IMG/VR virus record: IMGVR_UViG_3300021963_007958
Length of the DNA stretch: 64,000 nt
DNA from: a virus
Direction: 5' to 3' (one strand)
The translations under genes were made by a program, and so were the position numbers. Under the pieces are notes generated by a model. It was given only the letters and a program-made list of their open reading frames with translations. It was not told the DNA's origin and searched no databases. Each line of letters starts with the position of its first letter. The stretch's first letter is position 1. Shown here one piece after another: positions 40,853 through 63,819 of this stretch.

Positions 40853-41341
40853 CTATGAAATTTGTTTTCTGATCTCTTCTGCTACTGTTTTACCGACGCC
40901 GTAAGACATATCATAGTCGTTATCAGTAAAGACTGAGAATTTAATCCCCATAAAGTTTGGAATTTTCTTTGGCGTAAGTCTAATTAAAATGGAATATTCA
41001 TCATCGTCGATGTGAGGATCTGCTTGAATTTCATATCCTATTTCTATCTTCTTGTCCTCAGCTAGTCCAACATCTGATAGATCTGAGATAAGGTCATCTA
41101 GATCGGACGGATTTGGCTTTTGTAAATAGATCTCTATAATTCCCTTTCCAGAGTCTCCCCCAACTGCAGTTGAATATTCGCTGCTAACTGGATTTACTAC
41201 TTCAACCGACTTCAACTCATATCCATTTTTCAAAGATGATTTAGAGGCAAGTGCAATTGTAACCCATCTCTGGATTTGTTCTCCCCATTTTAAATGGTCA
41301 GAAGACTGGTGTTGATCATATTCAAGTAGATGCTTCATCAT
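40853..41341 (-). CDS. hypothetical protein with CTS-like leader and internal acidic tag
   Basis: MKHLLEYD; DLDDLISDLSDVGL. Confidence 0.65.
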   Translation of the reverse strand: MMKHLLEYDQHQSSDHLKWGEQIQRWVTIALASKSSLKNGYELKSVEVVNPVSSEYSTAVGGDSGKGIIEIYLQKPNPSDLDDLISDLSDVGLAEDKKIEIGYEIQADPHIDDDEYSILIRLTPKKIPNFMGIKFSVFTDNDYDMSYGVGKTVAEEIRKQIS

Positions 41342-42528
41342 AGTCCAATGTCATCTAGAGCGGAAAGCATCTCTGCATCTGCTTTTGTATCTTCAGGAAT
41401 TTCAATCTCTCTCAGAATTTTCTTAACCCTAAAGTCGTTCCAGATAGATTTGAGTCCAACTACGAATCTCTCCCCGTTTTGTTCTATTTCTTTCTTGATG
41501 TTATCAGGAGCTAATTTTTCCCTGATTGGATCTTTTGGTGCTTTTCCGGTCTTGATAAAATCAGGATCGGTGAACATGCTCAGGTAAGCAACTATCCAAC
41601 TCTTAGTTTCCTTTGCTACATTCAGAGCTCTTCTTAGAACCACGGGCTTAAGACCATTTTTTTCCAGATTGACATAATAATCTTTATCTAGAGGAAGTCC
41701 TTCTAGACTGTATAGATTCTCACATAAGTTAAATGAATAGGTAGGGGTTCTAGGATTACCGGTAATCAAAATTGGAGCTCCTTCTAGAGAAGAAAGGGAA
41801 TGACAGTAACTGGCAGAAAAAGAAGCATAAGGATTATTTATTTCTACCGGGGCTCCTTTTAAGCTCCTTATCCGAGTTGAATTACATTCATAGTTTCCAG
41901 TTCTTTTTGGTCCACCTTCTAGAGACGTAAGATTGTAGCAATCTGTAATATTGAATGCCTCTCCTACTTCTTCCGGTGATCCTTCTAAGCTATTTAATTT
42001 TTGATTAGAACTCAAATTGCAAGATTTTCCGACTTTCTTTGGACCTCCAACTAAATTTTCGAATTTATTATTTGAAGCATTAAAATTTCCTGTTACCTCT
42101 TCAGGGAATCCTTCCATCGAGGTTAGCATACAGGCATTAATCCAAAAATCTCCGTCCACCTTTCCAAATTTAAGCCCCAGGAGACTTCCTTCTTTAAAAT
42201 CTTGGACTGATGGTCCATTAAATCTTCCTACAACATCAATTAGTCCAGTCTCTGGATTTATACTCCAGGATGAATCTGGATCACTGCCCCATCTCTTCTC
42301 GACTGCTTTGTCTAGAGCTTTAATCTGTCTAGGAGTTAATTTACCAGACCATCCTGGTTCTTCTATTTCCAGCTCCTTACAAATCTTACCATAATCTTTA
42401 CCGGAAGAGTCACAATACCTTCTAAGAGTTAGAAGGAAATCCTTCATCTCCTTTGGATCAAGTTGATCCATATTTTGTAGCTCTTCGTAAAGAGCAAATG
42501 GTAATAAAGTCTTAATTTTCTTGTTCAT
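41338..42528 (-). CDS. phage LRR protein (~7 degenerate repeats) with C-terminal tag
   Basis: W.INPETGL.DV.G cap, LxSLEGxPxxV repeats, ends SALDDIGL. Confidence 0.75.
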   Translation of the reverse strand: MNKKIKTLLPFALYEELQNMDQLDPKEMKDFLLTLRRYCDSSGKDYGKICKELEIEEPGWSGKLTPRQIKALDKAVEKRWGSDPDSSWSINPETGLIDVVGRFNGPSVQDFKEGSLLGLKFGKVDGDFWINACMLTSMEGFPEEVTGNFNASNNKFENLVGGPKKVGKSCNLSSNQKLNSLEGSPEEVGEAFNITDCYNLTSLEGGPKRTGNYECNSTRIRSLKGAPVEINNPYASFSASYCHSLSSLEGAPILITGNPRTPTYSFNLCENLYSLEGLPLDKDYYVNLEKNGLKPVVLRRALNVAKETKSWIVAYLSMFTDPDFIKTGKAPKDPIREKLAPDNIKKEIEQNGERFVVGLKSIWNDFRVKKILREIEIPEDTKADAEMLSALDDIGL

Positions 42529-42566
42529 CCAGGACGATTCTTATTTCTGTCCTGTATATATCCAAA

Positions 42567-43526
42567 TTAGAATATTGCTTTGCAGATCTCTGCTGTAGCT
42601 TTAGATCTGGACATCGTGTAAAAGTGCAGAACGGGTGCCCCACCCTTAATTAAATCTTTACATTGTTCGATCGACCATCTGATACCTACCTCGGAAACTT
42701 CTTGGTTATTTTCACACCCCTCTATCTCTTTAGCGAGATCTTTGGGAATATCTAGACCAAAGACTCTAGGAAGAGTCCAGAGCTGACCCTTAGTAGTAAT
42801 TGGTTTCAGCCCAGGGATGATTGGAACATCGATTCCGTTTTTTCTGCACTTGTCAACAAAAGACCAGTATGCACCATTATCGAAGAACATCTGTGTAACG
42901 AAGAACTCTGCTCCCAGATTTCTTTTGAACTTCATCCACTCCATGTCCATGTCCATATTGGGGGATTCTAAATACTTTTCGGGATAGCATGCTCCTCCAT
43001 AACAGAAATCAGACGCTCCACCCTGAAGGTCCTCGTCTAGATAAATCCCATTGTTCATGTTTTGGATTTGAGACATTAGATCCGTCGAATTTCTATTTCC
43101 GGTGGGTTCTGGAACAAACGAGGATTCTCCTTTTCTTGGATCCCCTCTTAAAGCCAGAATATTGTCAATTCCTAAAAAATTAAGGTCAATCAAGGCGTTC
43201 TCTGTGTCCTCCTTGGTAAATCCCCCGCAGACTAAATGGGGAACTGCGTCAATTCCATATTTGTTCTGGATGGCGGAGCAGATTGCAACTGTTCCGGGTC
43301 TTTTTCGGGTGCTATATTTTTTAAGTGTTCCCTCCTGGGTCTCCTTAAACACATAGTCTTCTCTATGGTAAGTTACATCAATGAAAGAAGGATTGAATTC
43401 TAGAAGTTCGTCTATCGTCTGATAGATAGAGTTTATCTGTTGTCCTTTCATGGGAGGAAGAATTTCGAAAGAAAATAAAGTCTTTCCCTTCTCCTTTGCT
43501 TGAATAATATGATCTTTAATCTTCAC
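42567..43526 (-). CDS. metF: methylenetetrahydrofolate reductase
   Basis: FSFE..PP.KG, DVTYH, PHL.C, LALRGD, TQMFFD, LHFYT. Confidence 0.96.
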   Translation of the reverse strand: MKIKDHIIQAKEKGKTLFSFEILPPMKGQQINSIYQTIDELLEFNPSFIDVTYHREDYVFKETQEGTLKKYSTRKRPGTVAICSAIQNKYGIDAVPHLVCGGFTKEDTENALIDLNFLGIDNILALRGDPRKGESSFVPEPTGNRNSTDLMSQIQNMNNGIYLDEDLQGGASDFCYGGACYPEKYLESPNMDMDMEWMKFKRNLGAEFFVTQMFFDNGAYWSFVDKCRKNGIDVPIIPGLKPITTKGQLWTLPRVFGLDIPKDLAKEIEGCENNQEVSEVGIRWSIEQCKDLIKGGAPVLHFYTMSRSKATAEICKAIF

Positions 43527-43532
43527 TTATTT

Positions 43533-44435: not shown

Positions 44436-44466
44436 GTGAGGGGATTAGAATTTATATATCAAAGAA

Positions 44467-51437: not shown

Positions 51438-51713
51438 TTATCTGTCGGCTTCTAAAAGTCTTTCAATTTTATCGACCTCCACCTCTTTATCGAAGTCGTC
51501 GTGGGTTAGATCCATCAAAAGATCCGTTTCTCTTTCCCTCATTTCTATCTGTTCTTCTAGAATTAAAATTTCGTTGCTCAGAGAGTCTACAATTTTTTCT
51601 TTAGTCTTAACTTCTCTTTCCGCTAATCTCAATTCAGAGAGCATAGCAAACCCAAAGGCAAATCCAGTGAACACTAGAATCCAAGCCCAGTTGATATCTT
51701 TTATCTTCTTCAT
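51438..51713 (-). CDS. hypothetical membrane-anchored coiled-coil protein
   Basis: N-terminal TM then heptad-rich tail. Confidence 0.6.
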   Translation of the reverse strand: MKKIKDINWAWILVFTGFAFGFAMLSELRLAEREVKTKEKIVDSLSNEILILEEQIEMRERETDLLMDLTHDDFDKEVEVDKIERLLEADR

Positions 51714-52186
51714 TTTAGTTTTTCTTCTGATACTTCTAGTATTTCGGAGTTGGGAAATTTCGTCTTAATTTCTTTCTTGAGCTTAATTATTCCTGAAGAG
51801 TTTCCCCAGATGGTAAAAGATGGAATTCCATTTTCCGAGGTGTCCAGATAAAAGTAGGAATCCCCCATGGATTTAATTCTTTCCCCGAAGTGTTCTATAA
51901 ACTGTCTTTTGAAATCCACAGTGTAAGTGTATTCATTTGTCTCGTGACCGGTGTATTCATAACTTGATCTATAGGATTTATTCCCGTCTGTGTAGTCATT
52001 ATAGCTAGAGTAATTTGATTCCCCCTCCGAAACTTCTGTGTAGATATAATGACCTTTGGGAATTATGGTATAGGATGTCCTATGCTCGTCCGGAACTTTA
52101 TGTCCTTCAACCTTGAATGCTTCCTGGGTTTCGAGACCAATGTCCTCCAAAGTCTCCATCAGATCTACAATTTCAAAATCTTCCAT
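51710..52186 (-). CDS. hypothetical protein with N-terminal acidic tag
   Basis: MEDFEIVDLMETLEDIGLE; preceded by CGTATATT. Confidence 0.65.
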   Translation of the reverse strand: MEDFEIVDLMETLEDIGLETQEAFKVEGHKVPDEHRTSYTIIPKGHYIYTEVSEGESNYSSYNDYTDGNKSYRSSYEYTGHETNEYTYTVDFKRQFIEHFGERIKSMGDSYFYLDTSENGIPSFTIWGNSSGIIKLKKEIKTKFPNSEILEVSEEKLK

Positions 52187-52219: not shown

Positions 52220-52327
52220 ATGAAAAATGTTCTAGTTTATGGATTTCTTGTACTGCACATTCTAGCAGTCTTTTTAGTCAAAGCCCCGTTAGGCCTCGTT
52301 AAGAGATTAAAGCCCAATATCCGATAG
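52220..52327 (+). CDS. 35-aa hydrophobic/basic peptide
   Basis: GATACATA-AGAGGA-ATG then MKNVLVYGFLVLHILAVFLVKAPLGLVKRLKPNIR. Confidence 0.4.
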   Translation: MKNVLVYGFLVLHILAVFLVKAPLGLVKRLKPNIR

Positions 52328-53188
52328 ACTTCCCTGAAGATCTGTAACTTCCTTCGCTTCTTCATCAAATCCTTTTGGCGGAACATATCCCTCTGACTTT
52401 AAATGATTATAAAAGTCTAAAACTTCATTTTTTGGATATAGTCTAGAGTTTCCAAATCCCTTTGCTGTTGAATCATCAGGAAGCTGACACTGGGAAAGAG
52501 CATATTGAATTGTGGCAGGATCTTTTTCTACTTTTTCGATAAATCTCTTTTTGATCTCGTCATAAATTCCATATGGTAGGCTAAGAATAAGATCCATAGT
52601 CGAATCATAGTGCCCACCGTAAGGATTGCAGTCTTTCTTCACCCCAATAATTCCTAGATCCCCATCTTTATAAAGTTCTTCTAGATCACGGGAGAATAGG
52701 TCCATGATATGACTTATGGATCTAAAGTCAGGGGTGGCAGGTCCTGAGAACATGGTAAAATATATGACCTTAAAGATCTGGTTCCACGACTCTTTATCGT
52801 TCAAATAAACAATAAATTCAGATTTATGAGTTAGTCTAGTGTCATTAACGTAAATTTGTGCAGTGTCATTAGAGAAGGAATATCTACTCGAAGGTCTATA
52901 GACTTCGAAGATTCGATTGAAAGTTCCTCTTCGTCCAGAAACAGGAACAGAAAAAAACCAATTGTATCCACCCTTCAGATCTTTTCTGATCCTATCTAAT
53001 TTGAAATCCGGAAATGCCTGCTTGATTGATTTATACCACGGAAGATCTTGAAAGTCTTCCTCTTTTGCGTCGTACAGTTGGTCATTCGAAGGAACCTCAT
53101 AGAAGTTGTCCAGAAGGTATTTCTTGTTCTTAGATTTATAATCGTTAGACTCGTTGACGTACTCGTCAAAATTTAGGACCTTTTTCAT
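52307..53188 (-). CDS. hypothetical protein with CTS-like leader and C-terminal tag
   Basis: MKKVLNFDEYVNES ... DLQGSLSDIGL*. Confidence 0.7.
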   Translation of the reverse strand: MKKVLNFDEYVNESNDYKSKNKKYLLDNFYEVPSNDQLYDAKEEDFQDLPWYKSIKQAFPDFKLDRIRKDLKGGYNWFFSVPVSGRRGTFNRIFEVYRPSSRYSFSNDTAQIYVNDTRLTHKSEFIVYLNDKESWNQIFKVIYFTMFSGPATPDFRSISHIMDLFSRDLEELYKDGDLGIIGVKKDCNPYGGHYDSTMDLILSLPYGIYDEIKKRFIEKVEKDPATIQYALSQCQLPDDSTAKGFGNSRLYPKNEVLDFYNHLKSEGYVPPKGFDEEAKEVTDLQGSLSDIGL

Positions 53189-53763
53189 TACTCTATCTTT
53201 CTAACTCTAATTTCTGCTTTTAGACTTTTGTCTATCGTCTCCTTCACTTTTTTTGGACTCGATCTCCATCCGGTGTCGTAGAACTCCTGAAGCTCGGAAT
53301 CGCTCATCGAGTCCAAGAGTTTACTGTGAATCTCCTCCCATTTTTCAATTAGGACTTGAACTATCTCCTTCTTTACTTCCTGCAGAAGTGCATAGAGAGT
53401 TGGAACTCCGGCTGCAATCTGCTGGACATTCTCTTTGGACACAATCTCTAGAACCTCCGGACCTACATTTTTAGAGACACGTGGGTCGTCAGTATCTAGA
53501 GTCTGCTCAAATTCTCCCCTTCTGATCTTCTGAAGAGCAAACTCCTTATTGGCGTTCTCCGATCCCCTATCCGGAAAAACCGTGATGGCAAAAACCTCCA
53601 TATATGCTGTCCACCAGGAAGGGTGTGTTAATTGCTGAGGGACACATCCGTCTACCCAGCAGGACACTTTTACCTCTTTAGCCTGTCCAATAGAAACCAA
53701 ATCCCCTAGAAGATCTTCTAGTTCTTTGTCTGTGTAGTCTTCGTAGAGTTTAATGTGTTTCAT
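53188..53763 (-). CDS. paralog family member (leader + tag + body)
   Basis: MKHIKLYEDY..ELEDLLGDLVSIGQ. Confidence 0.7.
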   Translation of the reverse strand: MKHIKLYEDYTDKELEDLLGDLVSIGQAKEVKVSCWVDGCVPQQLTHPSWWTAYMEVFAITVFPDRGSENANKEFALQKIRRGEFEQTLDTDDPRVSKNVGPEVLEIVSKENVQQIAAGVPTLYALLQEVKKEIVQVLIEKWEEIHSKLLDSMSDSELQEFYDTGWRSSPKKVKETIDKSLKAEIRVRKIE

Positions 53764-53773
53764 CTTCGTGGGA

Positions 53774-54313
53774 TTAGATCTTGGTGATTCTAACGTTGTA
53801 GCCGATGTTCTCGTTCAGATGTCTAAGTTCACCGTTAGATGGATTGGGGACTCTGGCTACCATTAGACTTTCTATTTCGTCTATCAGAATAAATTGAATG
53901 GTATAAAGACTTCCATTAACGTCCCGATCTATGTGATCTGCGGGAAGCTTCTGAACTCTCTTTGCAAGTTCGATCGTGTGCTCTTTGCTGAGTACTGGAA
54001 CCAGCTCCGGAGCAGACTCGAACATCTGATCTAAATAGGTATTATACTCAACTTTAAAGTCTCCGGCTAGAACCTTCTCGAATGCTTTTTCCTGTGCTAC
54101 TGCTTCATCGTCTATACAGACAACTTCAGTCTCAATATTTCTAAACGCCCACTCTGGCCAGTCAAAGGTGTGTTTCAGCTTGTCTGGAACCATCACAAAG
54201 ACGTTGCACTCGACCTTGAACTTTGACACCTGCCCAACGTCTGATAGTGTATCAACTAGATCCTGAAGATCTTCTGCGTCATAAAATTCGTTATACTCTT
54301 TAATGTGTCTCAT
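53774..54313 (-). CDS. paralog family member (leader + tag + body)
   Basis: MRHIKEYNEF..DLQDLVDTLSDVGQ. Confidence 0.7.
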   Translation of the reverse strand: MRHIKEYNEFYDAEDLQDLVDTLSDVGQVSKFKVECNVFVMVPDKLKHTFDWPEWAFRNIETEVVCIDDEAVAQEKAFEKVLAGDFKVEYNTYLDQMFESAPELVPVLSKEHTIELAKRVQKLPADHIDRDVNGSLYTIQFILIDEIESLMVARVPNPSNGELRHLNENIGYNVRITKI

Positions 54314-55116
54314 TATAGTCCAATATCGGATAGATCTGCAACCAGATCCTTGTCTTCTCTAAATCCAGGAGGAAGATCCCTAATTTGATCCAAAATGTCG
54401 TTCAGCATTTTTCTGTGATTTGAAGGAACCTTAGCTAACTCAATCGCCATCTTCTCAGGAGCCTTTCTGATCTCTTCACCAAGCACTTCTGGGCTCAGCT
54501 TATTTTTAAGAATCCATTCGATGGACCCATCGGGATCCTTCTTGATCACATAATCACCAACCACGATCGACAGGTAGATTCCAGTCCAAGTCTCCTGTCC
54601 ACTGAGGACATCTTCTAGATCGTCTCTCAAAAAACCAGCTCTTATCGGGTTTCTGTCGACCACTGAAAATTTCGGGGATGGATTAAATCCTCCAAGAAGT
54701 TCTTTTGTCATTCCCTCTAACGAAACAAGAAGATTGTTCTCAAGAGAGATGGTCTTCTTCACAAGGCCAATTCCTTCTAGGGTTCTAAATTTATTTCCTC
54801 CTGCATTAAGGTGTGTTCCAATCTCTCTAGGAAGTTCGGATGCAGATTCCAGTCCTGCTCCGTTAACATTAAAGAATCCACCAACCTTGCCAAATTTAAT
54901 TCCAAGAAGACCTTCTTTCCATCCGTCTTTCAGAATGAAGTTTCCTCCAACGTTCACTAGACCAGTTTCAGGGTCTACCCACCAGGCGTCCTGTGGGTGA
55001 ACTCCCTTGTTGTTCCTCTGATAGTACTTACAAGAAGCATTCAGAAGGTCCCTCTGTTCGGGTGTCACCCCTTCCTGAAGAGATTCAAACATTCTATAGG
55101 TCTTAAGGTAGATCAT
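54313..55116 (-). CDS. phage LRR protein (~3 repeats) with C-terminal tag
   Basis: WVDPETGLVNV.G cap, LEG repeats, ends DLVADLSDIGL. Confidence 0.7.
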   Translation of the reverse strand: MIYLKTYRMFESLQEGVTPEQRDLLNASCKYYQRNNKGVHPQDAWWVDPETGLVNVGGNFILKDGWKEGLLGIKFGKVGGFFNVNGAGLESASELPREIGTHLNAGGNKFRTLEGIGLVKKTISLENNLLVSLEGMTKELLGGFNPSPKFSVVDRNPIRAGFLRDDLEDVLSGQETWTGIYLSIVVGDYVIKKDPDGSIEWILKNKLSPEVLGEEIRKAPEKMAIELAKVPSNHRKMLNDILDQIRDLPPGFREDKDLVADLSDIGL

Positions 55117-55133
55117 TCACGTATATATTCACA

Positions 55134-55159
55134 AAAAAACCCGGCAGAAGCCGGGCTTT
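55134..55159 (-). terminator. intrinsic terminator downstream of ferritin gene
   Basis: CCCGGC-ttct-GCCGGG-T7 on minus strand. Confidence 0.8.
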
Positions 55160-55179
55160 CAAAAATTATAAAATTAGAA

Positions 55180-55800
55180 TTATCCAAAATATTTGTCTTC
55201 GAACATTAGAAGATCCAACTTGTTGTTGTAGTCAACCAGCATAAGAGCATTAAGAAGATCGGAGAAGACTCCAACGGAGTGGTTCTGAATGTCCACAAAC
55301 TCCTGAATGAAGTTGAAAGTTGCAGGGTGCATCCCATCAACTTCAACTTGAATCTGAGAGTAAGACTGAAGAAGATTGTATTCAAACACATAGGAAGCAT
55401 TGACACAGTCGATCAAAGACTTCATCGTGTTGGGCACAGTTGCTACTGGAATCTGAGGAAGAACATTCCACTGAACCATATAGTCCTGAAGCTTCTGAGC
55501 GTGAGTTAATTCGTCTGCTGCTTCCTCTTCGAAGAAAGCACCTGCTTTAACATACCCAACGTTCTTGCACCAGTTGGCTGCATTCTTATAGATGAGGTGT
55601 GCGGTATACTCGTCCTTTAGTCTTGCTTCTAGAGCAGAGACGATGGAAGCATCTAGAGTCTTAGGAGTCATAGGGGTTCCCGCTGTATTAGAAGCTACTG
55701 GAGCTGCAACTACTGTTACGGAGTCCATGTCCATAGTTGGAGCGTCGTCCCAGCTTTCTAGAACTTCTTTAAATGTTTTGGTTGGGTTTAGTTTTGACAT
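55180..55800 (-). CDS. ferritin with CTS-like N-terminal extension (start revised to 55800)
   Basis: E..A...Y...A.WC...GY..A..FF...A..E..HA..L..Y ferroxidase pattern; GATATATA at 55819-55826 precedes ATG 55800. Confidence 0.85.
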   Translation of the reverse strand: MSKLNPTKTFKEVLESWDDAPTMDMDSVTVVAAPVASNTAGTPMTPKTLDASIVSALEARLKDEYTAHLIYKNAANWCKNVGYVKAGAFFEEEAADELTHAQKLQDYMVQWNVLPQIPVATVPNTMKSLIDCVNASYVFEYNLLQSYSQIQVEVDGMHPATFNFIQEFVDIQNHSVGVFSDLLNALMLVDYNNKLDLLMFEDKYFG

Positions 55801-55828
55801 TCGTGATGTTATTTTGGCTATATATCCC

Positions 55829-56386
55829 TTACCTCGTCTTGTATTCAACGACGTTTATCGGCTTCCTAATTGTGTAGAACTCGCCCTTTCTGTGGCTTGG
55901 ATCCGACGGTGGGGCAATGTAAACTTTAAAGGTCGACTCCGCATCTTCTGAATAGCCATAAGGACCTCCGATCTCTTTCGAAAGAGCCAAGGATTCTGAA
56001 CCCAGATCATCTGCAAAAGCATCCAGAGCATTTCCCGATTTTCCCGCCTTCAGATAGATCTTCTTGTAGGAGTCTTTGTCTCTTAGATAGTCTTTTGCAA
56101 TCTCCTGAATTTCCTCTTTTGAATAGTAGAGTCTAGAATCTTCTATCGGAAAATATTCAAATTTTCCATCTGCAATCAGCTGCAGAGCTGCGAGAGCATC
56201 CTGATCTTCATCTCCGGTTGCATAGAACCTATCGGTCGTGAGAATCTTATTGGCGTCGTAGTACTCGTCCTTAGAAACATACTGCAACCAGATGCTCGCC
56301 TTCGCTGGGTTTGTCTGTCCAATTCCCTCCAGATCTCCCAAGAGTCCTTTAATGTCGTGTTCTTCGTATTCTAGAATGTGCTTCAT
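55829..56386 (-). CDS. paralog family member (leader + tag + body)
   Basis: MKHILEYEEHDIKGLLGDLEGIGQ. Confidence 0.7.
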   Translation of the reverse strand: MKHILEYEEHDIKGLLGDLEGIGQTNPAKASIWLQYVSKDEYYDANKILTTDRFYATGDEDQDALAALQLIADGKFEYFPIEDSRLYYSKEEIQEIAKDYLRDKDSYKKIYLKAGKSGNALDAFADDLGSESLALSKEIGGPYGYSEDAESTFKVYIAPPSDPSHRKGEFYTIRKPINVVEYKTR

Positions 56387-56423
56387 GCTATTTCTCCATT
56401 AAATCCCCAATACGGGGATCTTA

Positions 56424-57128
56424 TTAACTTAAAGTTATCGTAACGGTGGTTCTTTTATTAGTATAAATTGTGTTCCCGGAAGTGTCTACGACTTTCACTG
56501 GTGTAAATGGGGAAGGAGGGGATCCTCCAGTTTCTGAGTAAGAAGATGGATTATATGTAGTTCTTGTTGTTCCTGCTCCAACTCCGTCGGTATCAGATGC
56601 AGAAACTGAAAAATTGACGGTGTAGGTATTACCTGGAGGTGGAGGAGGAGAAAAAGTTATAGTCTGAACTGCAATTCTGTATCCACCAGACCCAACTATA
56701 CTTACGGTAAGAGGTCCATTTGCAGTCCCACTGCTGGAACCTCCTCCTCCCGCTAAATTCCCATTAAAAACCATCCCTATGGGACTATCGTTTGAGTCCC
56801 AAATCTGAACGTCCATTATTACTCCGTTTGCAGAGTTGTTGGTGACGGTGAAGGTGGTAACCATGTCTATGTCTCGGGTATAATTGTACCAGTTAGACAT
56901 CGTCATATTTTGATTTGAGTTGTATGGATCATAAATGGCGTTCTTAGCCGACGTCGCGTTGTTAGAAGCCATATTTAAATTGTGGTACATTAGTGCATTC
57001 CCGGGATATGAGTTTGCAGCAGAGGAGTAAAAGTCGTTCTTGAGCTCCAGATTCGATGCAGGATTGACAAAATCCAGCTCGGTGTTGATGTCGGACATCT
57101 TAATGTCTCCTGATGCAGGGGTTGTCAT
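56424..57128 (-). CDS. putative virion surface/decoration protein
   Basis: MT.P.SG.I.MSDINTEL N-terminus typical of phage structural appendages; S/T/G/N-rich beta body. Confidence 0.55.
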   Translation of the reverse strand: MTTPASGDIKMSDINTELDFVNPASNLELKNDFYSSAANSYPGNALMYHNLNMASNNATSAKNAIYDPYNSNQNMTMSNWYNYTRDIDMVTTFTVTNNSANGVIMDVQIWDSNDSPIGMVFNGNLAGGGGSSSGTANGPLTVSIVGSGGYRIAVQTITFSPPPPPGNTYTVNFSVSASDTDGVGAGTTRTTYNPSSYSETGGSPPSPFTPVKVVDTSGNTIYTNKRTTVTITLS

Positions 57129-57129
57129 A

Positions 57130-57357
57130 TTAGAACGATGATATTTTAGTTGATACGCCAGACAGAGAGAGTTGGTCTTTAATCCCCGACGTGAACAGGT
57201 GGGAGAATTTCAATGGCACATAAACCCAATACTCGTAGGTTGATCCCCCGTCGGACGTTAGTGCTGTAAAGCTATACTTTCCCACAGGAATTCCATTTTG
57301 AGAAAGAATCTCCCTCACTTCTGGAATTTTTGATAGCATTGCAGTCTCTGAATTCAT
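57130..57357 (-). CDS. hypothetical protein (start revised to 57357)
   Basis: ATG follows GATATATA 57376-57383; the longer track ORF runs through a terminator and a candidate ncRNA. Confidence 0.55.
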   Translation of the reverse strand: MNSETAMLSKIPEVREILSQNGIPVGKYSFTALTSDGGSTYEYWVYVPLKFSHLFTSGIKDQLSLSGVSTKISSF

Positions 57358-57393
57358 GATGTAATTTAGTTTATCTATATATCTCTCAAACCC

Positions 57394-57429
57394 AAAAAGA
57401 AAGACGGGAGTAGCGAATTCCCGTCTTTC
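57394..57429 (-). terminator. intrinsic terminator
   Basis: GAAAGACGGGA/TCCCGTCTTTC stem followed by TTTTT on minus strand. Confidence 0.8.
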
Positions 57430-57482
57430 AGTAGTCGTAACTACTCCGGTCCTAAAAGGGGACATAAAGTCCGCCGGATGTC
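57394..57482 (-). ncRNA. candidate small structured RNA
   Basis: GATATATA promoter 57484-57491, three-way junction + UACG hairpin, then intrinsic terminator. Confidence 0.55.
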
Positions 57483-57516
57483 TTATATATCTTTATTGTT
57501 TGGTCCTAAATCTTTC

Positions 57517-58392
57517 TTACAGACCAACGTCCGAAAGATCACCCAGGAGATCCATCTCTCCTTCGTATCCCTTCGGAAAGACCAACCTCTCTCGGGTCTC
57601 CCTAAAATCCGGATGGTTCCAGACTTCCTTCAGTCTCATCATCGTCCCTTCTGGGTCCTTCTGGATCTGTCGGTTCAGCGTCTCTGGAGCCAGGAAAGGT
57701 GTGATTAGCTTCTGAGCATCCGGACTTCCTGACCTAAGAATTTCCATCCAGCCTGCAGGATTCCATTTCCCTTTATCGAGATAAAATGCATCACAGTCGA
57801 AATCCCCTCCCACCTCCTGCGGCGCTCCTTCCAGAGTCTCCAGACGGTTGTTGTGGCAAGAGAAATCCCCTCCCACCTTCTTCGGAGCTCCTTCCAGGGA
57901 TGCCAGACTGTTAAAGGAGCAAGAGAAACCACCTCCCACCTCCTGCGGCGCTCCTTCCAGAGTCTCCAGACGGTTGTTGCCACAATAGAAATCTCCCCCC
58001 ACCTCCTGAGGTGCTCCTACCAGAGACTTCAGATTGTTATCTGAACAACGGAACACACCTCCGACCTTCTGGGGTGTTCCTTCCAGAGACTCCAGCCTGT
58101 TTTCGTCGCAATCGAAATATCCTCCCACCTCCTGGGGTGCTCCTTCCAGAGTCTCCAGACGGTTGGTGTGGCAACTGAAATTCCCTCCTATAACGCCAAA
58201 CCTAATTCCTTTCAGAGTCTCCAGCCCCATAGAGCTGCAATGGAAATCCCCATCAATGTCCACCAGCCCGGTCGACGGATCTAATTTCCATTGTCCTTGG
58301 GTGCACATGTTCAGAAATGCTTCTTGTTCTGAGGTTAATCCCTTCTCAGATTCAAATATCTGGTATGTCTTTAGATGTTTCATTCTTTTCAT
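57517..58392 (-). CDS. phage LRR protein (six 21-aa repeats) with leader and C-terminal tag (start 58392 or 58383)
   Basis: LxxLEGAPxxVGGxFxCxxN x6; MKHLKTYQIFES; ends DLLGDLSDVGL. Confidence 0.8.
   Translation of the reverse strand: MKRMKHLKTYQIFESEKGLTSEQEAFLNMCTQGQWKLDPSTGLVDIDGDFHCSSMGLETLKGIRFGVIGGNFSCHTNRLETLEGAPQEVGGYFDCDENRLESLEGTPQKVGGVFRCSDNNLKSLVGAPQEVGGDFYCGNNRLETLEGAPQEVGGGFSCSFNSLASLEGAPKKVGGDFSCHNNRLETLEGAPQEVGGDFDCDAFYLDKGKWNPAGWMEILRSGSPDAQKLITPFLAPETLNRQIQKDPEGTMMRLKEVWNHPDFRETRERLVFPKGYEGEMDLLGDLSDVGL
57790..58180. repeat. 63-bp coding tandem repeats (LRR units)
   Basis: 48-bp exact duplicate at 57806-57853 and 57932-57979 (126 bp apart). Confidence 0.9.
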
Positions 58393-58436
58393 GTTTTGTC
58401 GGACTCGAACAAGCTCCATTCTCTTAAATGCTTCAT
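58389..58436 (-). CDS. 15-aa leader-only mini-ORF MKHLREWSLFESDKT
   Basis: First ATG after AATATATA (58442-58449); its stop overlaps the LRR gene start (ATGA). Confidence 0.45.
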   Translation of the reverse strand: MKHLREWSLFESDKT

Positions 58437-58701
58437 GCTCTTATATATTCTTTTTAGACCGGGGTAATACCACCCACCATTCTCTCTGTTCTTCTCTGTT
58501 ATCTTAGACTCAAAGCGCCTGTAGAGGCATTTTGCTCGTCATTCATGTGCGCGTCTTGGGGCCCCTCGGGTTCCCCCACGAGACCCTAAAGTTTGGGCGG
58601 GTCTACCCCTAGGACTCCCCCTAAAGCTTGGGTTTGGGACTTCTGGGCCCATCTGGGCTAAGCTTGGGACCCCCCGCGGCGTCTAATCTAAGACGATTGA
58701 T

Positions 58702-59286
58702 TTATTGGATGTAGTTGATGCCAGACCCCTTCTGAAAGGGATTATCTAGATTGGCAGTGACGAGATACGGAGAGACCTGAGGACCAAGAAACCCATAGAC
58801 AAACACATCTGAAGCAGTCTCTTCGCTATAAGGGTATCTAGTCTTATTCAGTTGTCCCTGAAGAGCGTACTGCTGAGATCCGACCAAACCCTCCTTTATC
58901 TCCTGAAGGAGCTCGTCAATGGTGGAACAGGTCTTAGACAGAGACTGTACTCTCCTCTTCTCTATGAGATCAACAGCAACCTTGTTGCCGTTCTTGAGAC
59001 TTGCCCAGGATCTGGCATCTGGGTGGCTGGGTCTCACAAATTCTCCCTTCTGAATCTTCTCCAGCATAATTGTCTTGTCCTTGTTCTCATCACCGGTTCC
59101 GTAGAAGGGCTTGGTCTCTAGGAAGCACACGATCTCTGGGTTATAAGACCAGTAGTCGGACATGAGTCTGTAGGTGTTGAACCTTGCCCACAGTGTGCCC
59201 TTGTAAGACTTCATCTGACCAACAGAGTCTAGATTCCCCATGAGGTCTCTGAGGTCTGTTTCGTCGTATTCTAAGATGTACTTCAT
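58702..59286 (-). CDS. paralog family member (leader + tag + body)
   Basis: MKYILEYDETDLRDLMGNLDSVGQ. Confidence 0.7.
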   Translation of the reverse strand: MKYILEYDETDLRDLMGNLDSVGQMKSYKGTLWARFNTYRLMSDYWSYNPEIVCFLETKPFYGTGDENKDKTIMLEKIQKGEFVRPSHPDARSWASLKNGNKVAVDLIEKRRVQSLSKTCSTIDELLQEIKEGLVGSQQYALQGQLNKTRYPYSEETASDVFVYGFLGPQVSPYLVTANLDNPFQKGSGINYIQ

Positions 59287-59945
59287 AAATCCTTTAAGTA
59301 GATTCTTGGGTTTACAAGGTTTAACCCGTTAGTCAGATCCTCTAGGACAACCTTCTCAGAGTAGGCAGTCGCATGGTACAGAGAGGCATCTGGAGCAATC
59401 AGAAGATCTGGGTCTTGGTCTTCCCCGTAGACAAGAGCAACTCCGCCTCCTGGAGGTCGATAGTCAGCTGAGGAGTATCGGATGCTCATGAACTTCTCCC
59501 TCAGAGATTCTAGGGCTTCCCCTAAAGTCTTTCCCTCTTCCTCTTGGTCTTTAAAGAACTCCTGGAGGGAGGGCTTGTCTAGGAAAGCAACAGCCTTTCT
59601 AGAACTAACACGGTCCAAGTTGTGCTTGTCTTCTGGGTCAAAGGGATTATCAGAGACTAGGCTAGCCCAGTCTTGTCCTTGAATGGTTGGTCTGATGAAG
59701 TCCCCATTGGACAGAGAGTCTAAGATTATCTCCTGGTCTCCCAAGAGGGTTCCGGTAGACCAGAAGGGATCCCCTAGAGCAATGGGAACTCTCAGCTTGT
59801 TGGTGTAGCCTGCATAGTAGGTAAAGCTTGGGATCTCTACCCAGAGGGAATAGGTCCTCTTTGCAGACTGACCGACGGTCTCTAGGTCCCCCAAGAGATC
59901 TTGGATCTCGTGGTCCTCATATTCTAGGATGTGTCTAAGTCTCAT
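59283..59945 (-). CDS. paralog family member (leader + tag + body)
   Basis: MRLRHILEYEDHEIQDLLGDLETVGQ; GATATATA at 59982-59989. Confidence 0.7.
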   Translation of the reverse strand: MRLRHILEYEDHEIQDLLGDLETVGQSAKRTYSLWVEIPSFTYYAGYTNKLRVPIALGDPFWSTGTLLGDQEIILDSLSNGDFIRPTIQGQDWASLVSDNPFDPEDKHNLDRVSSRKAVAFLDKPSLQEFFKDQEEEGKTLGEALESLREKFMSIRYSSADYRPPGGGVALVYGEDQDPDLLIAPDASLYHATAYSEKVVLEDLTNGLNLVNPRIYLKDL

Positions 59946-60243
59946 GGTTGATAGGGTACGGAAACATTGAATGATCCTACCTATATATCCCTCGTGCGTA
60001 CGGGTGGGCAGACGGGTCCGAGTTTATTCTATAGTACAGAGTTGTACCGTGGGTACAACTGAAGGAACGGAAATAAACAAATGCGGATCACGGAGGGTGG
60101 GAATGTGGATCAAATACCCCTGAAAGTGAGCTTGAAATTGGGGTGGGATGAGCTTGAAAGTCTGGGAAGGCTGGAAGGACTTGGTGTCTGGGAAAGACTG
60201 GAATGGTCTGGGAGGAGGTTGGAAAGACTGTCCAGCCAGCTTT

Positions 60244-60307
60244 CCTTATAAAGTGTCAAGTAGAACCTTACTAATATGTCAAATGAAACCTTACTAATAT
60301 GTCAAGT
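60244..60307. repeat. three iteron-like direct repeats, 23-bp period
   Basis: TGTCAA at 60254, 60277, 60300; AACCTTACTAATATGTCAA exact at 60264-60282 and 60287-60305. Confidence 0.85.
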
Positions 60308-60465
60308 GGCGAGGAGAATTGCTTAGCGTAGCCATGGGCTTGTTTCTATGGCCCTACGTGAGGCCCCCTCAAAAGGCCCTCCCAGGGGTCCCCCAGCTTA
60401 GCGTATATCCACCCCTGATAGGGTCCCTATACGTGAGGGGCCCTTAACCCTCTAGGAGGGACCCT

Positions 60466-60499
60466 AAAAAAGGCCCCCTCCATCACCTGAAGGGGGCCT
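60466..60499 (-). terminator. intrinsic terminator ending the small-gene cluster
   Basis: AGGCCCCCT...AGGGGGCCT stem + T-run on minus strand. Confidence 0.75.
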
Positions 60500-60533
60500 A
60501 AGTTCTACCTAATGTTGCTTTCCTGGTTCTGTT

Positions 60534-60842: not shown

Positions 60843-60860
60843 ACGTGTGAATATACGGTC

Positions 60861-61349
60861 TTAGTCTACTGATTCGAAATCGATTCTGCTTCTCTCGGTT
60901 GAGTCTCCCTCGTACATCAGTTCTTCAAAGGCTTCCCCGTTGACTCCGTTCTCGTCTAGGAATTCGTTGCCTTCCTCGTCCTCATCGTCATAGTCTATGC
61001 CTCCCCCGTACTCTTCTACATATGCATCATAGCCTACTTCGTGGAGACTGTCGGTGATGTCGTCGTAGAACTCTTGATAGGTGGATGCCTTCTTGGCGGC
61101 GGCCACGATCTGATCTTTCTCCAGTACGTCCCCGATGTAGGCACCGTTGTCCTCTTCGGAGATCTGAACCTCGAAGGTTCCTTCTCTGAGGGCTTGAAGA
61201 ACTTTAGTCTCCTTGTCTGCTGAATCGGAAACCTTCTCCGAGAATGGGATGACGATGGATCTAGTTGTGAGACCCCAGTAGCCGGAGTAGTCGTCTTCGT
61301 TGGGTAGAACTCCGATAAAGTTGATGGCTGCTTTCTCTACTGTCTTCAT
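60861..61349 (-). CDS. untagged member of the 53-60 kb paralog family
   Basis: DKE..VLQAL..G.F and L.K..I...A....T..E body motifs without leader or tag. Confidence 0.6.
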   Translation of the reverse strand: MKTVEKAAINFIGVLPNEDDYSGYWGLTTRSIVIPFSEKVSDSADKETKVLQALREGTFEVQISEEDNGAYIGDVLEKDQIVAAAKKASTYQEFYDDITDSLHEVGYDAYVEEYGGGIDYDDEDEEGNEFLDENGVNGEAFEELMYEGDSTERSRIDFESVD

Positions 61350-61353
61350 ATGC

Positions 61354-61581: not shown

Positions 61582-61591
61582 GTGGTTGTTA

Positions 61592-61786: not shown

Positions 61787-61811
61787 GATGTGTTTGGTAG
61801 AATATACGGTC

Positions 61812-62036
61812 TTAGATTGGGAGCCGGCGGATTCTGTCTGTGATGGCCTTGACCCTCCCCCTCGGGGTGGGAGGTGTCTTTAGCCATTTTGTTCCAGTGT
61901 AGATGTAGGTCTGGGCTTCCCAGTCGAATTTACTTTGATCTATGAATTTGAAGATCTGACCCACGATGGGAGACTTTGGAAACTCTATCTGGGATTTCCC
62001 GTTGATCCACTTTGGGTAAATTAGTTTTGGGTACAT
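61812..62036 (-). CDS. hypothetical protein
   Basis: FP.SP.VGQ.F...Y.Y.G.KW motif. Confidence 0.55.
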   Translation of the reverse strand: MYPKLIYPKWINGKSQIEFPKSPIVGQIFKFIDQSKFDWEAQTYIYTGTKWLKTPPTPRGRVKAITDRIRRLPI

Positions 62037-62404
62037 TAGACCAGTCCGATGTCGTCGAGTGAGTTTACTAGGTTTTCGTCCTCTGCTTCTACCTTGATTA
62101 GGAGTTCCGCCGAAGCCTTAAGCTTTCCCCTGAAGTCTGACTCTCCGACTGGGGTTAACAGAACATTCTTCTGCATGGTCTTGTCTACTCTCCAGAGTCC
62201 CTTGCGGTTGCATCTCTCGGGAAGGTAGACTATGTCTCCGACCTGTAGGGCCTTGATAGCCTCTTTGGCTCTCTTGTTGATGTCCTTGTTGTACAGCTCC
62301 ACCTGACGGTTGAACTCCAGCAGTCTGAACCCGTACATGCGGTTGGCCTTGTTGGCCTTGGTCATCAGCCATTTTCTCTCTTGTAGGATTTCGTCTTTGG
62401 TCAT
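62036..62404 (-). CDS. SH3-like small protein with C-terminal tag
   Basis: LQVGDIV...V.K...K.V; ends NLVNSLDDIGLV. Confidence 0.6.
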   Translation of the reverse strand: MTKDEILQERKWLMTKANKANRMYGFRLLEFNRQVELYNKDINKRAKEAIKALQVGDIVYLPERCNRKGLWRVDKTMQKNVLLTPVGESDFRGKLKASAELLIKVEAEDENLVNSLDDIGLV

Positions 62405-62418
62405 GCTAGAATATACGG

Positions 62419-62814: not shown

Positions 62815-63071
62815 GCTTCCCCTCCTTCTGAGTCTACTGGTGTATTGAGGAACTTTAATAGGTTCTCCTTCTCCTCTTGAAGGTTGTGAGCCTTGCCTTC
62901 AAACATTAGGGCTAGGAACATCCAGACGAATAGGGTGAACGCCGAAGAGGCTTGGGTCATCTGGCCTGCCTCCAGGAAGATGATGATGAGGGCTAACTGA
63001 ATTCCGATCATTGCGATAACTGTGGCTCTAGCGATGAACCTGACGTCGATTTGTTGTAGTAGTGATTTCAT
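62811..63071 (-). CDS. small 2-TM membrane protein
   Basis: Two hydrophobic segments. Confidence 0.6.
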   Translation of the reverse strand: MKSLLQQIDVRFIARATVIAMIGIQLALIIIFLEAGQMTQASSAFTLFVWMFLALMFEGKAHNLQEEKENLLKFLNTPVDSEGGEA

Positions 63072-63078
63072 AATATTA

Positions 63079-63354
63079 TTAAATTGATACGTGATTTAAG
63101 AGGATGATGTAGAAGGGGATAACCCTTTTGTTGACTGAGTCTGCTCGGTTGTATGTTCTGGTGAGGTCGTTGTCGACTACCGCCTGAACAAACGATCCGC
63201 CCTGGATTCCTCCGTCTCTCGTCTGGAGGACTGAAACACCAACGTTGATGACGTGGCTCATCTCTTCTTCCGTGAGGGTGACCGAGATCTGGTTTCCATA
63301 CCATTGGTCGAACTCCTGCTTGACTCTGTCTTTGTATGTTTGTATGTCTTTCAT
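63079..63354 (-). CDS. hypothetical protein
   Basis: GGSFVQAV..NDL.....RAD..N. Confidence 0.65.
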   Translation of the reverse strand: MKDIQTYKDRVKQEFDQWYGNQISVTLTEEEMSHVINVGVSVLQTRDGGIQGGSFVQAVVDNDLTRTYNRADSVNKRVIPFYIILLNHVSI

Positions 63355-63396
63355 TTAATATAATATACGCTGGGGTGGGTTAGTTTTCTCTGTTGC

Positions 63397-63819
63397 TTAC
63401 AACTTGTTAACAAGTGCTTTATACTTCTCGTACTCTGATATTAGCTCAGTTTCCGGTAGGGTGACAACGAACTGGGCTGAGAAGGCGGTGAATGTCATCT
63501 GAAGCTCCAGACCAAACTCTCTTGCCATCCTCGGGTAGATGGTCATGTTCTCACCACCTTCGTCTGCGGTCAGAAGCTCCTCGATGGCTTCTTTGAATCT
63601 GCCTGCTTCTGGAAAGTATTCCAGGTTGGCCAGATTTGTCTCACTGCCTTTGTTCTTCTTCGACATGGCAGATCCCTTCCATGCTTTAGGGTTCTCTGGA
63701 TCTACCCTCATGTAGCCTTTCTTCTCCGCCAGAAACTTGAGCATATCACGGACGGTCGGGGTGTAGTGCCCGACCGTCTCTAAGTCTTCTGTTAGTGATT
63801 TGAATTCCTCTTCGGTCAT
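63397..63819 (-). CDS. hypothetical protein with N-terminal tag (start ATG 63819)
   Basis: MTEEEFKSLTEDLETVGH; CCCGTATATTTG-AAC-ATG. Confidence 0.65.
   Translation of the reverse strand: MTEEEFKSLTEDLETVGHYTPTVRDMLKFLAEKKGYMRVDPENPKAWKGSAMSKKNKGSETNLANLEYFPEAGRFKEAIEELLTADEGGENMTIYPRMAREFGLELQMTFTAFSAQFVVTLPETELISEYEKYKALVNKL

What the first reader, a model, noticed from the sequence alone, without database searches (positions are those of the whole stretch)
40853..63819. Portable acidic helix tag D-L-h-x-x-L-[SED]-[DST]-[IV]-G-[LQH] on 13 proteins from several unrelated families: a candidate undescribed addressing/docking system
Seen at the extreme C-terminus: 41338 (EMLSALDDIGL*), 52307 (DLQGSLSDIGL*), 54313 (DLVADLSDIGL*), 57517 (DLLGDLSDVGL*), 62036 (NLVNSLDDIGLV*). 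Seen at the N-terminus: 51710 (DLMETLEDIGL), 53188 (DLLGDLVSIGQ), 53774 (DLVDTLSDVGQ), 55829 (GLLGDLEGIGQ), 58702 (DLMGNLDSVGQ), 59283 (DLLGDLETVGQ), 63397 (SLTEDLETVGH). Seen internally: 40853 (DLISDLSDVGL). The carriers are LRR proteins, an SH3-like protein, one paralog family and singletons. Codons differ synonymously (gat cta tcc gat att gga / gat ctt tcg gac gtt ggt / tca ctc gac gac atc gga), so conservation acts on the peptide rather than reflecting a DNA repeat. It occurs on late, leader-bearing proteins and on genes behind the early-type promoter. Inference: a position-independent short linear motif that docks many phage proteins onto one hub (a phage scaffold, ejection machine or AAA chaperone, or a host complex). 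Together with the capsid-targeting-like leader it forms a two-address code: package me, then dock me.
Basis: partly seen in the sequence, partly recalled or inferred. Interest (0 to 1): 0.9.

Follow-up and report, generated by a model that had tools for sequence, protein, structure and literature searches.

The report
Portable acidic helix tag, phage proteins
An uncultured T4-like jumbo phage, probably of freshwater Bacteroidota, puts the same conserved 11-residue acidic helix on 13 proteins from about seven unrelated contexts. It is most likely a docking peptide read by one partner, but that partner was not found.

Summary
The motif D-L-h-x-x-L-x-x-[IV]-G-[LQH] occurs 13 times, all in minus-strand genes at 40.8-63.8 kb, against 0.1 expected by chance. 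Scores fall into two separate groups, and the codons differ between copies.

The count of 13 overstates independence. Eight carriers belong to two paralogue families: three LRR proteins and five 'family B' proteins. That leaves about seven independent contexts.

New here:
- The tag is the ancestral C-terminus of a very large phage LRR family. Of the 120 best homologues, 93 end in a tag, and most of those end in G-F.
- Its presence on other proteins, at N-terminal, C-terminal and internal positions, was seen only in this phage lineage.
- It is more conserved than the rest of the protein in 11 of 11 orthologue groups.
- Outside the tag, the carriers share nothing detectable.
- In a divergent sister lineage, every tag seen on both families changed position 9 from I/V to L. 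This fits one shared reader, although gene conversion between tags would give the same pattern.

AlphaFold leaves the N-terminal tag of family B undocked (pLDDT 40-50). The LRR C-terminal tag helix scores 80-87. One carrier, 63397, may hold the motif as a fold element.

No partner was identified, and the 'two-address code' is untested. I class it as a new variant of a known principle (T4 CTS, encapsulin and microcompartment cargo peptides).

The parts
41063..41095 (-). Tag instance, internal (residues 83-93 of 162) in ORF 40853-41341. This protein has the family-B-type leader at residues 2-11, about 68 residues upstream of the tag.
   Evidence: (28.0 bits). The orthologue in L040 keeps the internal tag.
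41341..41373 (-). Tag instance at the extreme C-terminus of LRR paralogue ORF 41338-42528. It is the weakest match (E-M at positions 1-2).
   Evidence: 21.9 bits. Conserved in L040.
52133..52165 (-). Tag instance at the N-terminus (residues 8-18) of singleton ORF 51710-52186. No T4-CTS-like leader.
   Evidence: 28.3 bits; tag identity 0.88 against 0.74 for the rest.
52310..52342 (-). Tag instance at the extreme C-terminus of singleton ORF 52307-53188, which has a leader. It is preceded by P-K-G-F, as in the LRR family.
   Evidence: Of 120 homologues, 119 keep it.
53683..53715 (-). Tag instance just behind the leader of family B paralogue ORF 53188-53763.
54230..54262 (-). Tag instance just behind the leader of family B paralogue ORF 53774-54313.
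54316..54348 (-). Tag instance at the extreme C-terminus of LRR paralogue ORF 54313-55116. Its stop overlaps the start of the next family B gene.
56315..56347 (-). Tag instance just behind the leader of family B paralogue ORF 55829-56386.
   Evidence: tag identity 0.86 against 0.42 for the rest.
57520..57552 (-). Tag instance at the extreme C-terminus of LRR paralogue ORF 57517-58419. Orthologues suggest the true start is near 58374-58383.
   Evidence: (31.5 bits, best).
59215..59247 (-). Tag instance just behind the leader of family B paralogue ORF 58702-59286.
   Evidence: nearly all full-length orthologues of the 83 retrieved keep it; helix 9-22, pLDDT 40-50.
59868..59900 (-). Tag instance just behind the leader of family B paralogue ORF 59283-59945.
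   Evidence: tag identity 0.91 against 0.40 for the rest.
62042..62074 (-). Tag instance one residue from the C-terminus of singleton ORF 62036-62404. No leader. It lies in the GC-richer upstream transcription unit.
63766..63798 (-). Tag-like N-terminal helix of singleton ORF 63397-63825 (probable start 63819). This is the least certain instance. Distant homologues keep a degenerate version followed by a conserved Y-x-P-[TS]-V.
   Evidence: (22.9 bits).
60861..61349 (-). Distant family B paralogue with neither leader nor tag. It shows that the tag is separable from the domain.
   Evidence: HMM of the B domain without its N-terminus, E 8.6e-6.

Best explanation
The motif is a short linear docking peptide: an acidic amphipathic helix of 11-16 residues. 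Hydrophobic residues sit at motif positions 2, 3, 6 and 9, and also at -1 in N-terminal copies. An invariant Gly follows, then usually a hydrophobic residue or Gln/His, which looks like a Gly helix C-cap.

Its oldest home is the extreme C-terminus of a very large family of phage cysteine-ladder-type LRR proteins that also carry a T4-CTS-like N-terminal leader. In this lineage of T4-like jumbo phages the same peptide also sits on at least five further sequence-unrelated proteins, at either end or internally.

My reading is that one common partner reads it. That partner is probably phage-encoded and probably part of the set of head-internal or ejected proteins, so that differently built proteins are gathered onto the same site.

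Shown: non-randomness, peptide-level selection, orthologue conservation, restriction of similarity to the tag, separability from leader and domain, and lineage-wide concerted change.

Inferred: that it binds anything, that the partner is single, and what the partner is.
For: - Chance: 13 instances against 0.10 expected, with two clearly separated score groups.
- Codons: synonymous codons differ between copies.
- Conservation: the tag is more conserved than the rest of the protein in 11 of 11 orthologue groups from four contigs. Nearly all full-length orthologues of 58702 keep it, as do 119 of 120 homologues of 52307.
- LRR family: 3427 homologues were found. Of the 120 best, 93 end in a tag, most of the form W-P-K-G-Y-x-x-E-A-D-L-V-G-D-L-D-D-[VI]-G-F.
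- More distant phages (L030, L031) carry it only on tandem LRR paralogues within the 17-21 kb fetched.
- Carriers are unrelated outside the tag by BLAST and HMM.
- Separability: family B has an untagged member, and 40853 has leader and tag about 68 residues apart.
- Last residue: L, Q and H interchange between orthologues and between N- and C-terminal copies, so this is one motif class.
- Concerted change: in the divergent lineage L057/L041, all 7 (+4) tags on both families, N- and C-terminal, have L at position 9 and I/L/V at 11. Position 9 is I or V in all clear tags of the window and its close relatives.
- Structure: AlphaFold models the family B tag as a helix (residues 9-22) with pLDDT 40-50 beside a confident globular domain (27-175). 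It is therefore not modelled as a confident part of that fold.
Against: - No partner was found.
- The LRR tag helix has pLDDT 80-87, and the preceding W/F-P-x-G-[YF] segment travels with it. It may pack in cis on the C-terminal helical cap.
- The 63397 family keeps a degenerate version at 28-49% identity, as a structural helix would.
- Eight of 13 carriers are paralogues, so duplication explains most copies.
- Gene conversion between neighbouring tags could also produce the concerted change.
- Only 64 kb of a genome of perhaps 145-250 kb, plus about 20 kb of each relative, was examined.
Confidence: 0.5

Rival explanations
1. The motif is a structural element with no common partner: a stable acidic helix with a Gly cap. 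It recurs because of paralogy, short-patch recombination between neighbouring genes, and convergence. In each protein it packs on its own domain or simply caps it.
For: - Eight of 13 carriers are paralogues.
- The LRR tag helix is modelled at pLDDT 80-87.
- The 63397 family keeps a degenerate form in distant homologues.
- The genes are clustered within 23 kb, which favours gene conversion.
Against: - The family B tag is not modelled as docked (pLDDT 40-50).
- One B paralogue lacks it.
- The tag is more conserved than the domains in 11 of 11 groups.
- It works at N-terminal, C-terminal and internal positions.
- Position 9 changed together in both families in the sister lineage.
Confidence: 0.2
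2. The tags bind each other or the LRR proteins. Either N-terminal and C-terminal helices pair, or the tag of another protein replaces the LRR protein's own tail on its C-terminal helical cap. LRR and family B proteins would then form hetero-oligomers without an external hub.
For: - LRR and B(-like) genes alternate.
- Two junctions have overlapping stop and start codons (54313, 41338-41341).
- This order is kept in L021, L023, L025 and L057.
- Tags of both families change together.
Against: - In more distant phages the LRR proteins carry the tag with no family B gene within the 17-21 kb fetched.
- All tags are acidic, so pairing them would bring like charges together.
- No positive evidence of contact exists.
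Confidence: 0.12
3. The tag is a tethering peptide or degron for a protease or AAA+ machine. Candidates are the host ClpP, HslV or a PDZ protease, or the phage's own ClpC-like ATPase at 29208-31316. The LRR proteins would then act as adaptors that bring bound targets to that machine.
For: - The C-terminal copies end in [IV]-G-[FL]-COOH.
- From memory, this resembles the [LIV]-G-[FL] ClpP-docking tripeptide of ClpX/ClpA and the hydrophobic C-terminal tail of HslU. That is a lead, not a test.
- The window encodes a ClpC-like ATPase without the usual N-domain.
Against: - N-terminal copies end in Gln or His, and one orthologous C-terminal copy ends in Gln. This does not fit a hydrophobic pocket ligand.
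- The tripeptide sits at a helix end, not in a loop.
- Nothing here links the tag to any protease.
Confidence: 0.1
4. The motif is a recognition or cleavage site of the T4-type prohead protease.
For: Several copies contain L-E or L-x-[DE], and most carriers bear CTS-like leaders.
Against: There is no invariant acidic residue at a fixed position after the Leu: positions 7 and 8 vary among S, D, E, G, T and V. A site at the last 11 residues of a protein would release only a tiny peptide. The invariant residue is Gly, not Glu.
Confidence: 0.03

Closest known systems
Capsid targeting sequence (CTS) of phage T4 internal proteins IPI-III and Alt (reviewed in PMC3012670 and PMC9958956, both retrieved but not read here; CTS details are from my own knowledge)
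   Same: A short peptide shared by otherwise unrelated proteins of a T4-like phage. Most carriers here also bear a CTS-like leader, so they are plausible head cargo.
   Different: The CTS is strictly N-terminal, ends in a (L/I)-x-E protease site and is removed. This tag is position-independent, has an invariant Gly and no invariant Glu, sits behind or far from the leader, and also occurs on proteins without a leader.
Encapsulin cargo-loading peptides and bacterial microcompartment encapsulation peptides (own knowledge)
   Same: Short peptides at either terminus that are portable between unrelated cargo proteins and are read by one shell-side site. Microcompartment peptides are amphipathic helices, and encapsulin shells share the HK97 fold of phage capsids.
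   Different: The sequence consensus differs. No encapsulin or microcompartment shell gene was seen in the window. Binding to the capsid interior is untested. The tag is strongly acidic.
C-terminal tethering peptides of protease adaptors (SspB XB motif) and the ClpX/ClpA [LIV]-G-[FL] and HslU C-tail docking elements (own knowledge)
   Same: A variable binding domain plus a constant short terminal peptide. The C-terminal copies end in [IV]-G-[FL].
   Different: There is no evidence of any protease link. N-terminal copies end in Gln or His. The context is helical.
LRR effectors with 20-22-residue repeats (IpaH, SspH1, YopM) and the cysteine-ladder LRR of internalin J
   Same: The three LRR carriers have 21-residue repeats with a conserved Cys. 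The model gives weak Foldseek matches to these LRR proteins (probability about 0.97-1.0 but E >= 0.01).
   Different: These are phage proteins with a CTS-like leader, their own N-terminal cap, a C-terminal helical cap and the tag. They have no enzymatic domain.
Another portable acidic tag noted by this scan in a giant freshwater phage (e1-5467350)
   Same: An acidic short peptide grafted on many unrelated proteins of a huge phage.
   Different: The sequence differs (D-P-Y-G-E-E-x-W) and so does the phage. That note was not checked here.

Membership tests
T4 capsid targeting sequence (CTS) | Located at the extreme N-terminus of the precursor | tested here: not met
   Five copies are C-terminal and one is internal. 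The N-terminal copies lie behind a separate leader.
T4 capsid targeting sequence (CTS) | Ends in a prohead-protease site (L/I)-x-E and is cleaved off | tested here: not met
   There is no invariant Glu; the invariant residues are Leu 2, Leu 6 and Gly 10. Cleavage itself cannot be tested with these tools.
T4 capsid targeting sequence (CTS) | Necessary and sufficient for packaging into the head | not testable with these tools
   No virion proteome or culture exists for this uncultured phage.
Encapsulin cargo-loading peptide | Consensus rich in G-S-L-x-I-G-S-L-K type residues at a cargo terminus | tested here: not met
   The tag consensus is acidic: D-L-h-x-D-L-[SDE]-x-[IV]-G-h. Only the I-G-h piece resembles it.
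Encapsulin cargo-loading peptide | Binds the interior of an HK97-fold shell encoded nearby | not tested
   The head genes lie outside the window and could not be fetched.
Bacterial microcompartment encapsulation peptide | Amphipathic helix of about 18 residues at the N- or C-terminus of unrelated proteins | tested here: met
   Hydrophobic stripe at positions -1, 2, 3, 6 and 9. Predicted helices at residues 9-22 and 276-285. Carriers are unrelated.
Bacterial microcompartment encapsulation peptide | Microcompartment shell proteins (BMC-H/P) encoded in the same locus | tested here: not met
   No such Pfam family appeared among the 40 window proteins scanned. Not all ORFs were scanned.
ClpP-docking [LIV]-G-[FL] element | Tripeptide with a hydrophobic third residue, in a surface loop of an AAA+ unfoldase | tested here: not met
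   The carriers are not AAA+ proteins. The third residue is Gln or His in 44 of 52 distinct N-terminal copies. The context is helical.
Leucine-rich repeat proteins (carriers 41338, 54313, 57517) | Tandem 20-29-residue L-x-x-L-x-L-x-x-N repeats forming a solenoid | tested here: met
   21-residue repeats are visible in the alignment consensus. The model has pLDDT 93 with a regular strand ladder. Foldseek gives weak hits to IpaH, YopM and SspH1. Precomputed Pfam LRR_4 is present on several homologues.

The most novel reading that the evidence does not exclude
The tag is a true second address code of a widespread group of T4-like jumbo phages. It would be independent of the CTS leader, read by one dedicated receptor that co-evolves with it (I/V-type and L-type lineages), and used to assemble a modular set of LRR binders and small proteins into one complex that is packaged, ejected or recruited to a host machine.
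Probability: 0.3. Interest if true: 0.8.

Novelty: new variant of a known kind. Interest (0 to 1): 0.6.

Why it matters
Portable address peptides are rare and useful. The T4 CTS, encapsulin cargo peptides and microcompartment peptides each opened both mechanism and engineering.

Here a different, position-independent peptide is conserved on thousands of metagenomic phage LRR proteins, and in one lineage on several other proteins. If one receptor reads it, this would show how large phages organise many accessory, probably injected, proteins. It would also give a handle for finding what the hypervariable LRR binders are brought to, and a new short tag for loading or tethering proteins in phage-based tools.

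Tried and rejected
- Complex prediction: LRR protein (alignment A6) with a family B protein (A5) scored 0.15 and 0.00 against a mark of 0.32. The verdict was 'no answer', so it counts neither for nor against binding.
- Pfam and PHROGs on the carriers: no family apart from two weak PHROG hits of unknown function for 57517.
- Family B fold: Foldseek (PDB) and VIA-align wide gave no match (best Z 3.1). The fold is unassigned.
- ESM Atlas for 58702 and 52307: no usable lead.
- IMG/VR loci L001-L020, found with the LRR alignment: these more distant LRR proteins lack the C-terminal module and the tag. They were no help for the tag itself.
- IMG/VR scan with 58702: nothing.
- Cultured phages: only LRR-domain matches in two Vibrio phages and three huge uncultured phages.
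- Larger shared module: an HMM of the LRR C-terminal cap without the tag does not hit 52307, 62036 or any other carrier. The idea that 52307 shares the whole C-terminal domain, suggested by the alignment, is rejected. Only about 20-25 residues are shared.
- Whole-genome census: no genome is held for the window, and the metagenome records behind the loci cannot be searched.
- T4 late promoter T-A-T-A-A-A-T-A: 4 matches against 4.1 expected, so gene timing could not be assigned. Sigma-70-like sites are not enriched.
- 'SH3-like' nature of 62036: no support from Pfam or PDB sequence search.
- Protease cleavage-site reading: rejected, because no acidic residue is fixed.


Full report
**Context**

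The window is part of an uncultured T4-like jumbo phage. It encodes:
- a DnaB-like helicase and a RecA/UvsX-like protein;
- serine hydroxymethyltransferase, MTHFR and a PLP enzyme;
- a ClpC-like double AAA+ ATPase without the usual N-domain;
- a MoxR ATPase with split peptidase and vWA partners;
- a CCA/poly(A) polymerase-type enzyme.

No whole genome is held. Relatives occur on contigs of 41-246 kb from lake, brackish and other aquatic metagenomes. The phage SHMT is up to 75% identical to those of Flavobacteriales and Chitinophagaceae genomes. From this I infer a Bacteroidota host; it is only an inference.

**Observation**

A regular expression for the reported motif finds 12 instances, and a slightly relaxed one finds the thirteenth. 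All are in minus-strand ORFs between 40.8 and 63.8 kb. None lies in another frame or in the first 40 kb.

Shuffling residues within the 90 predicted proteins gives a mean of 0.10 matches and a maximum of 2. A position matrix built from the instances themselves scores the 13 at 21.9-31.5 bits. The next best site in the proteome scores 10.2 bits, which is what shuffled proteomes reach. The set is therefore discrete.

The 33-nt stretches are only 55% identical. Identical residues use the same codon in 37% of pairs.

**How many independent carriers**

All-against-all BLAST groups the carriers as follows:
- three LRR proteins (41338, 54313, 57517), tag at the extreme C-terminus;
- five 'family B' paralogues (53188, 53774, 55829, 58702, 59283), tag directly behind an M-K-H-I-L-E-Y-E type leader;
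- five singletons (40853, 51710, 52307, 62036, 63397).

Profile searches add three points:
- 60861-61349 is a distant family B member with neither leader nor tag (E 8.6e-6).
- 40853 carries the B-type leader at residues 2-11 but the tag at 79-93.
- A profile of the LRR C-terminal cap without its last 11 residues hits only the three LRR proteins. With the tag included, it picks up 40853, 52307 and 62036 only over the last 14-20 profile positions.

What the families share is therefore a peptide of about 14-25 residues, not a domain. In 52307 and the LRR family the shared piece extends upstream to a P-x-G-[FY] turn. The honest count is about seven independent contexts. Relatives add an eighth, a 109-residue protein.

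**Conservation**

- Of 83 relatives of 58702 (52-100% identity), nearly all full-length ones keep D-L-[ML]-G-[DN]-L-x-x-[VI]-G-[QH].
- Of 120 homologues of 52307, 119 keep the C-terminal tag.
- Across the window and three related contigs, the tag is more conserved than the rest of the protein in 11 of 11 orthologue groups. Examples are 0.86 against 0.42 and 0.91 against 0.40.
- The last residue varies among L, Q and H between orthologues. One C-terminal copy ends in Q, and several N-terminal copies end in L. N- and C-terminal copies therefore form one motif class.
- Unique instances from all loci give the extended patterns [ED]-[DE]-x-[DE]-[IL]-x-D-L-[LM]-G-D-L-[ED]-x-[VI]-G-[QH] (N-terminal) and G-[FY]-x-E-[DE]-x-D-L-[VL]-x-D-L-[DS]-D-[IV]-G-[LF]-end (C-terminal).
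- The hydrophobic positions -1, 2, 3, 6 and 9 form one face of a helix. The invariant Gly followed by a hydrophobic residue looks like a helix C-cap. That last point is my reading of the sequence.

**Origin**

The LRR family is very large: 3427 homologues at E <= 1e-5. Of the 120 best, 93 end in a tag. Most have the form W-P-K-G-Y-x-x-E-A-D-L-V-G-D-L-D-D-[VI]-G-F, so Phe is the commonest last residue.

In two more distant phages (contigs of 343 and 148 kb), four to six tandem LRR paralogues carry the tag. No other gene within the 17-21 kb fetched carries it, although other leader-bearing genes are present. Still more distant LRR proteins in IMG/VR and in two Vibrio phages lack the C-terminal module altogether.

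The tag is therefore ancestral to the tail of the LRR family. Its presence on family B and the singletons was seen only in the window's lineage.

**Concerted change**

In a divergent sister lineage (L057 and L041), every tag seen has Leu at motif position 9 and I, L or V at position 11. This covers seven tags on one contig and four on the other, on family B N-termini and LRR C-termini alike. In the window and its close relatives (L021, L023, L025, L040, L052 and others), every clear tag has I or V at position 9.

These tags sit in orthologous genes, so several separate lines changed the same way on one branch. That is what a change in a shared reader would produce. Gene conversion among clustered tags could also produce it. 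I take it as the best single argument for a common partner, but not as proof.

**Structure**

With a 58-sequence alignment, AlphaFold gives family B a confident globular domain (residues 27-175, pLDDT mostly 85-97). The leader and tag (residues 1-25) have pLDDT 40-50, and residues 9-22 form a helix. The tag is therefore not modelled as a confident part of that fold. The domain matches no solved fold.

The LRR protein is modelled at pLDDT 93. It has a disordered leader, a regular solenoid, a helical cap (209-265), a loop, and the tag helix at 276-285 with pLDDT 80-87. Foldseek gives only weak matches to LRR effectors.

Distant homologues of 63397 (28-49% identity) keep a degenerate helix-Gly-hydrophobic start followed by a conserved Y-x-P-[TS]-V. 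In that family the motif may be an ordinary first helix, so I regard this instance as the least secure.

**Mechanism**

I commit to a docking peptide read by one partner (confidence about 0.5). The partner is unknown.

Most carriers bear CTS-like leaders. They sit in a cluster with other leader-bearing genes, including a ferritin-like protein, so a role in gathering head-internal or ejected proteins is my preferred guess. However, 51710, 62036 and 63397 have no leader. The last two lie in a separate, GC-richer transcription unit that ends at a strong terminator. The tag is therefore not simply part of the packaging signal.

The main rivals are:
- a structural helix spread by paralogy and gene conversion;
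- direct tag-tag or tag-LRR-cap binding, suggested by the alternating and sometimes overlapping LRR and B genes;
- a tether or degron for a protease or AAA+ machine, suggested only by the [IV]-G-[FL] ending, which I recall from ClpX/ClpA loops.

A protease cleavage site is unlikely, because no acidic residue is fixed. The single complex prediction I could run (LRR with B) returned no verdict.

**Comparison and novelty**

The principle of a short portable address on unrelated proteins is known from the T4 CTS, encapsulin cargo peptides and microcompartment encapsulation peptides. The tag fails the defining features of the CTS (position, cleavage motif). It also fails the sequence consensus of encapsulin peptides. 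It shares only the amphipathic-helix-at-either-end feature with microcompartment peptides.

Three literature searches turned up no description of this motif or of the tagged LRR family. This scan has noted leader tags in many T4-like jumbo phages and one other acidic portable tag in a different giant phage. Notes on this same genome describe the B family and the tagged LRR paralogues; I confirmed both. I class the finding as a new variant of a known kind.

Noticed in passing
window 55180-55848 (-): A ferritin/Dps-like protein (Pfam Ferritin, E 1e-18) sits inside the tag gene cluster and is conserved there in relatives (L023, L027, L057). Its probable start, judged from relatives, gives an N-terminus with a CTS-like h-x-x-F-x-E-V-L-E pattern. 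It may therefore be a head-packaged ferritin-like protein.
   Followed up: partly
window 59946-60533: About 0.6 kb with no convincing ORF lies between two minus-strand gene blocks. At its upstream edge is a strong terminator-like hairpin (60499-60471, 12 pairs, 8 G-C, T-run). GC content rises from about 0.38-0.42 to 0.47-0.48 from about 56 kb to the window's end.
   Followed up: no
window 3715-59945, many ORF starts (e.g. 8604-10721, 10771-12411, 33459-34256, 36443-36892, 52307-53188): About 20 proteins begin with a T4-CTS-like leader (M-K-x-h-x-x-[FY]-x-x-[FY] ... h-x-E). LRR homologues in far more distant phages keep almost the same leader. This is the subject of other notes of this scan.
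   Followed up: partly
window 53188-59945 and 60861-61349: Family B (five tagged paralogues and one bare one) has a confidently predicted alpha/beta domain with no match in the PDB by Foldseek or VIA-align (best Z 3.1).
   Followed up: partly
window 29208-31316 (-): A ClpB/ClpC-like double AAA+ ATPase with a UVR motif. It has an Asp-rich N-terminus of about 80 residues in place of the usual Clp N-domain.
   Followed up: no
window 56424-57128 (-): A 234-residue Gly/Ser/Thr/Asn-rich protein with a poly-Pro stretch sits inside the cluster. It is conserved in L027, L028 and L057, and has no family match, leader or tag.
   Followed up: no
L030:8685-12593, L031:9317-15563: Distant jumbo phages carry 4-6 back-to-back LRR paralogues, each with leader and C-terminal tag, next to a sigma-70-like gene. 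The repeat number varies between paralogues (226-438 residues).
   Followed up: partly
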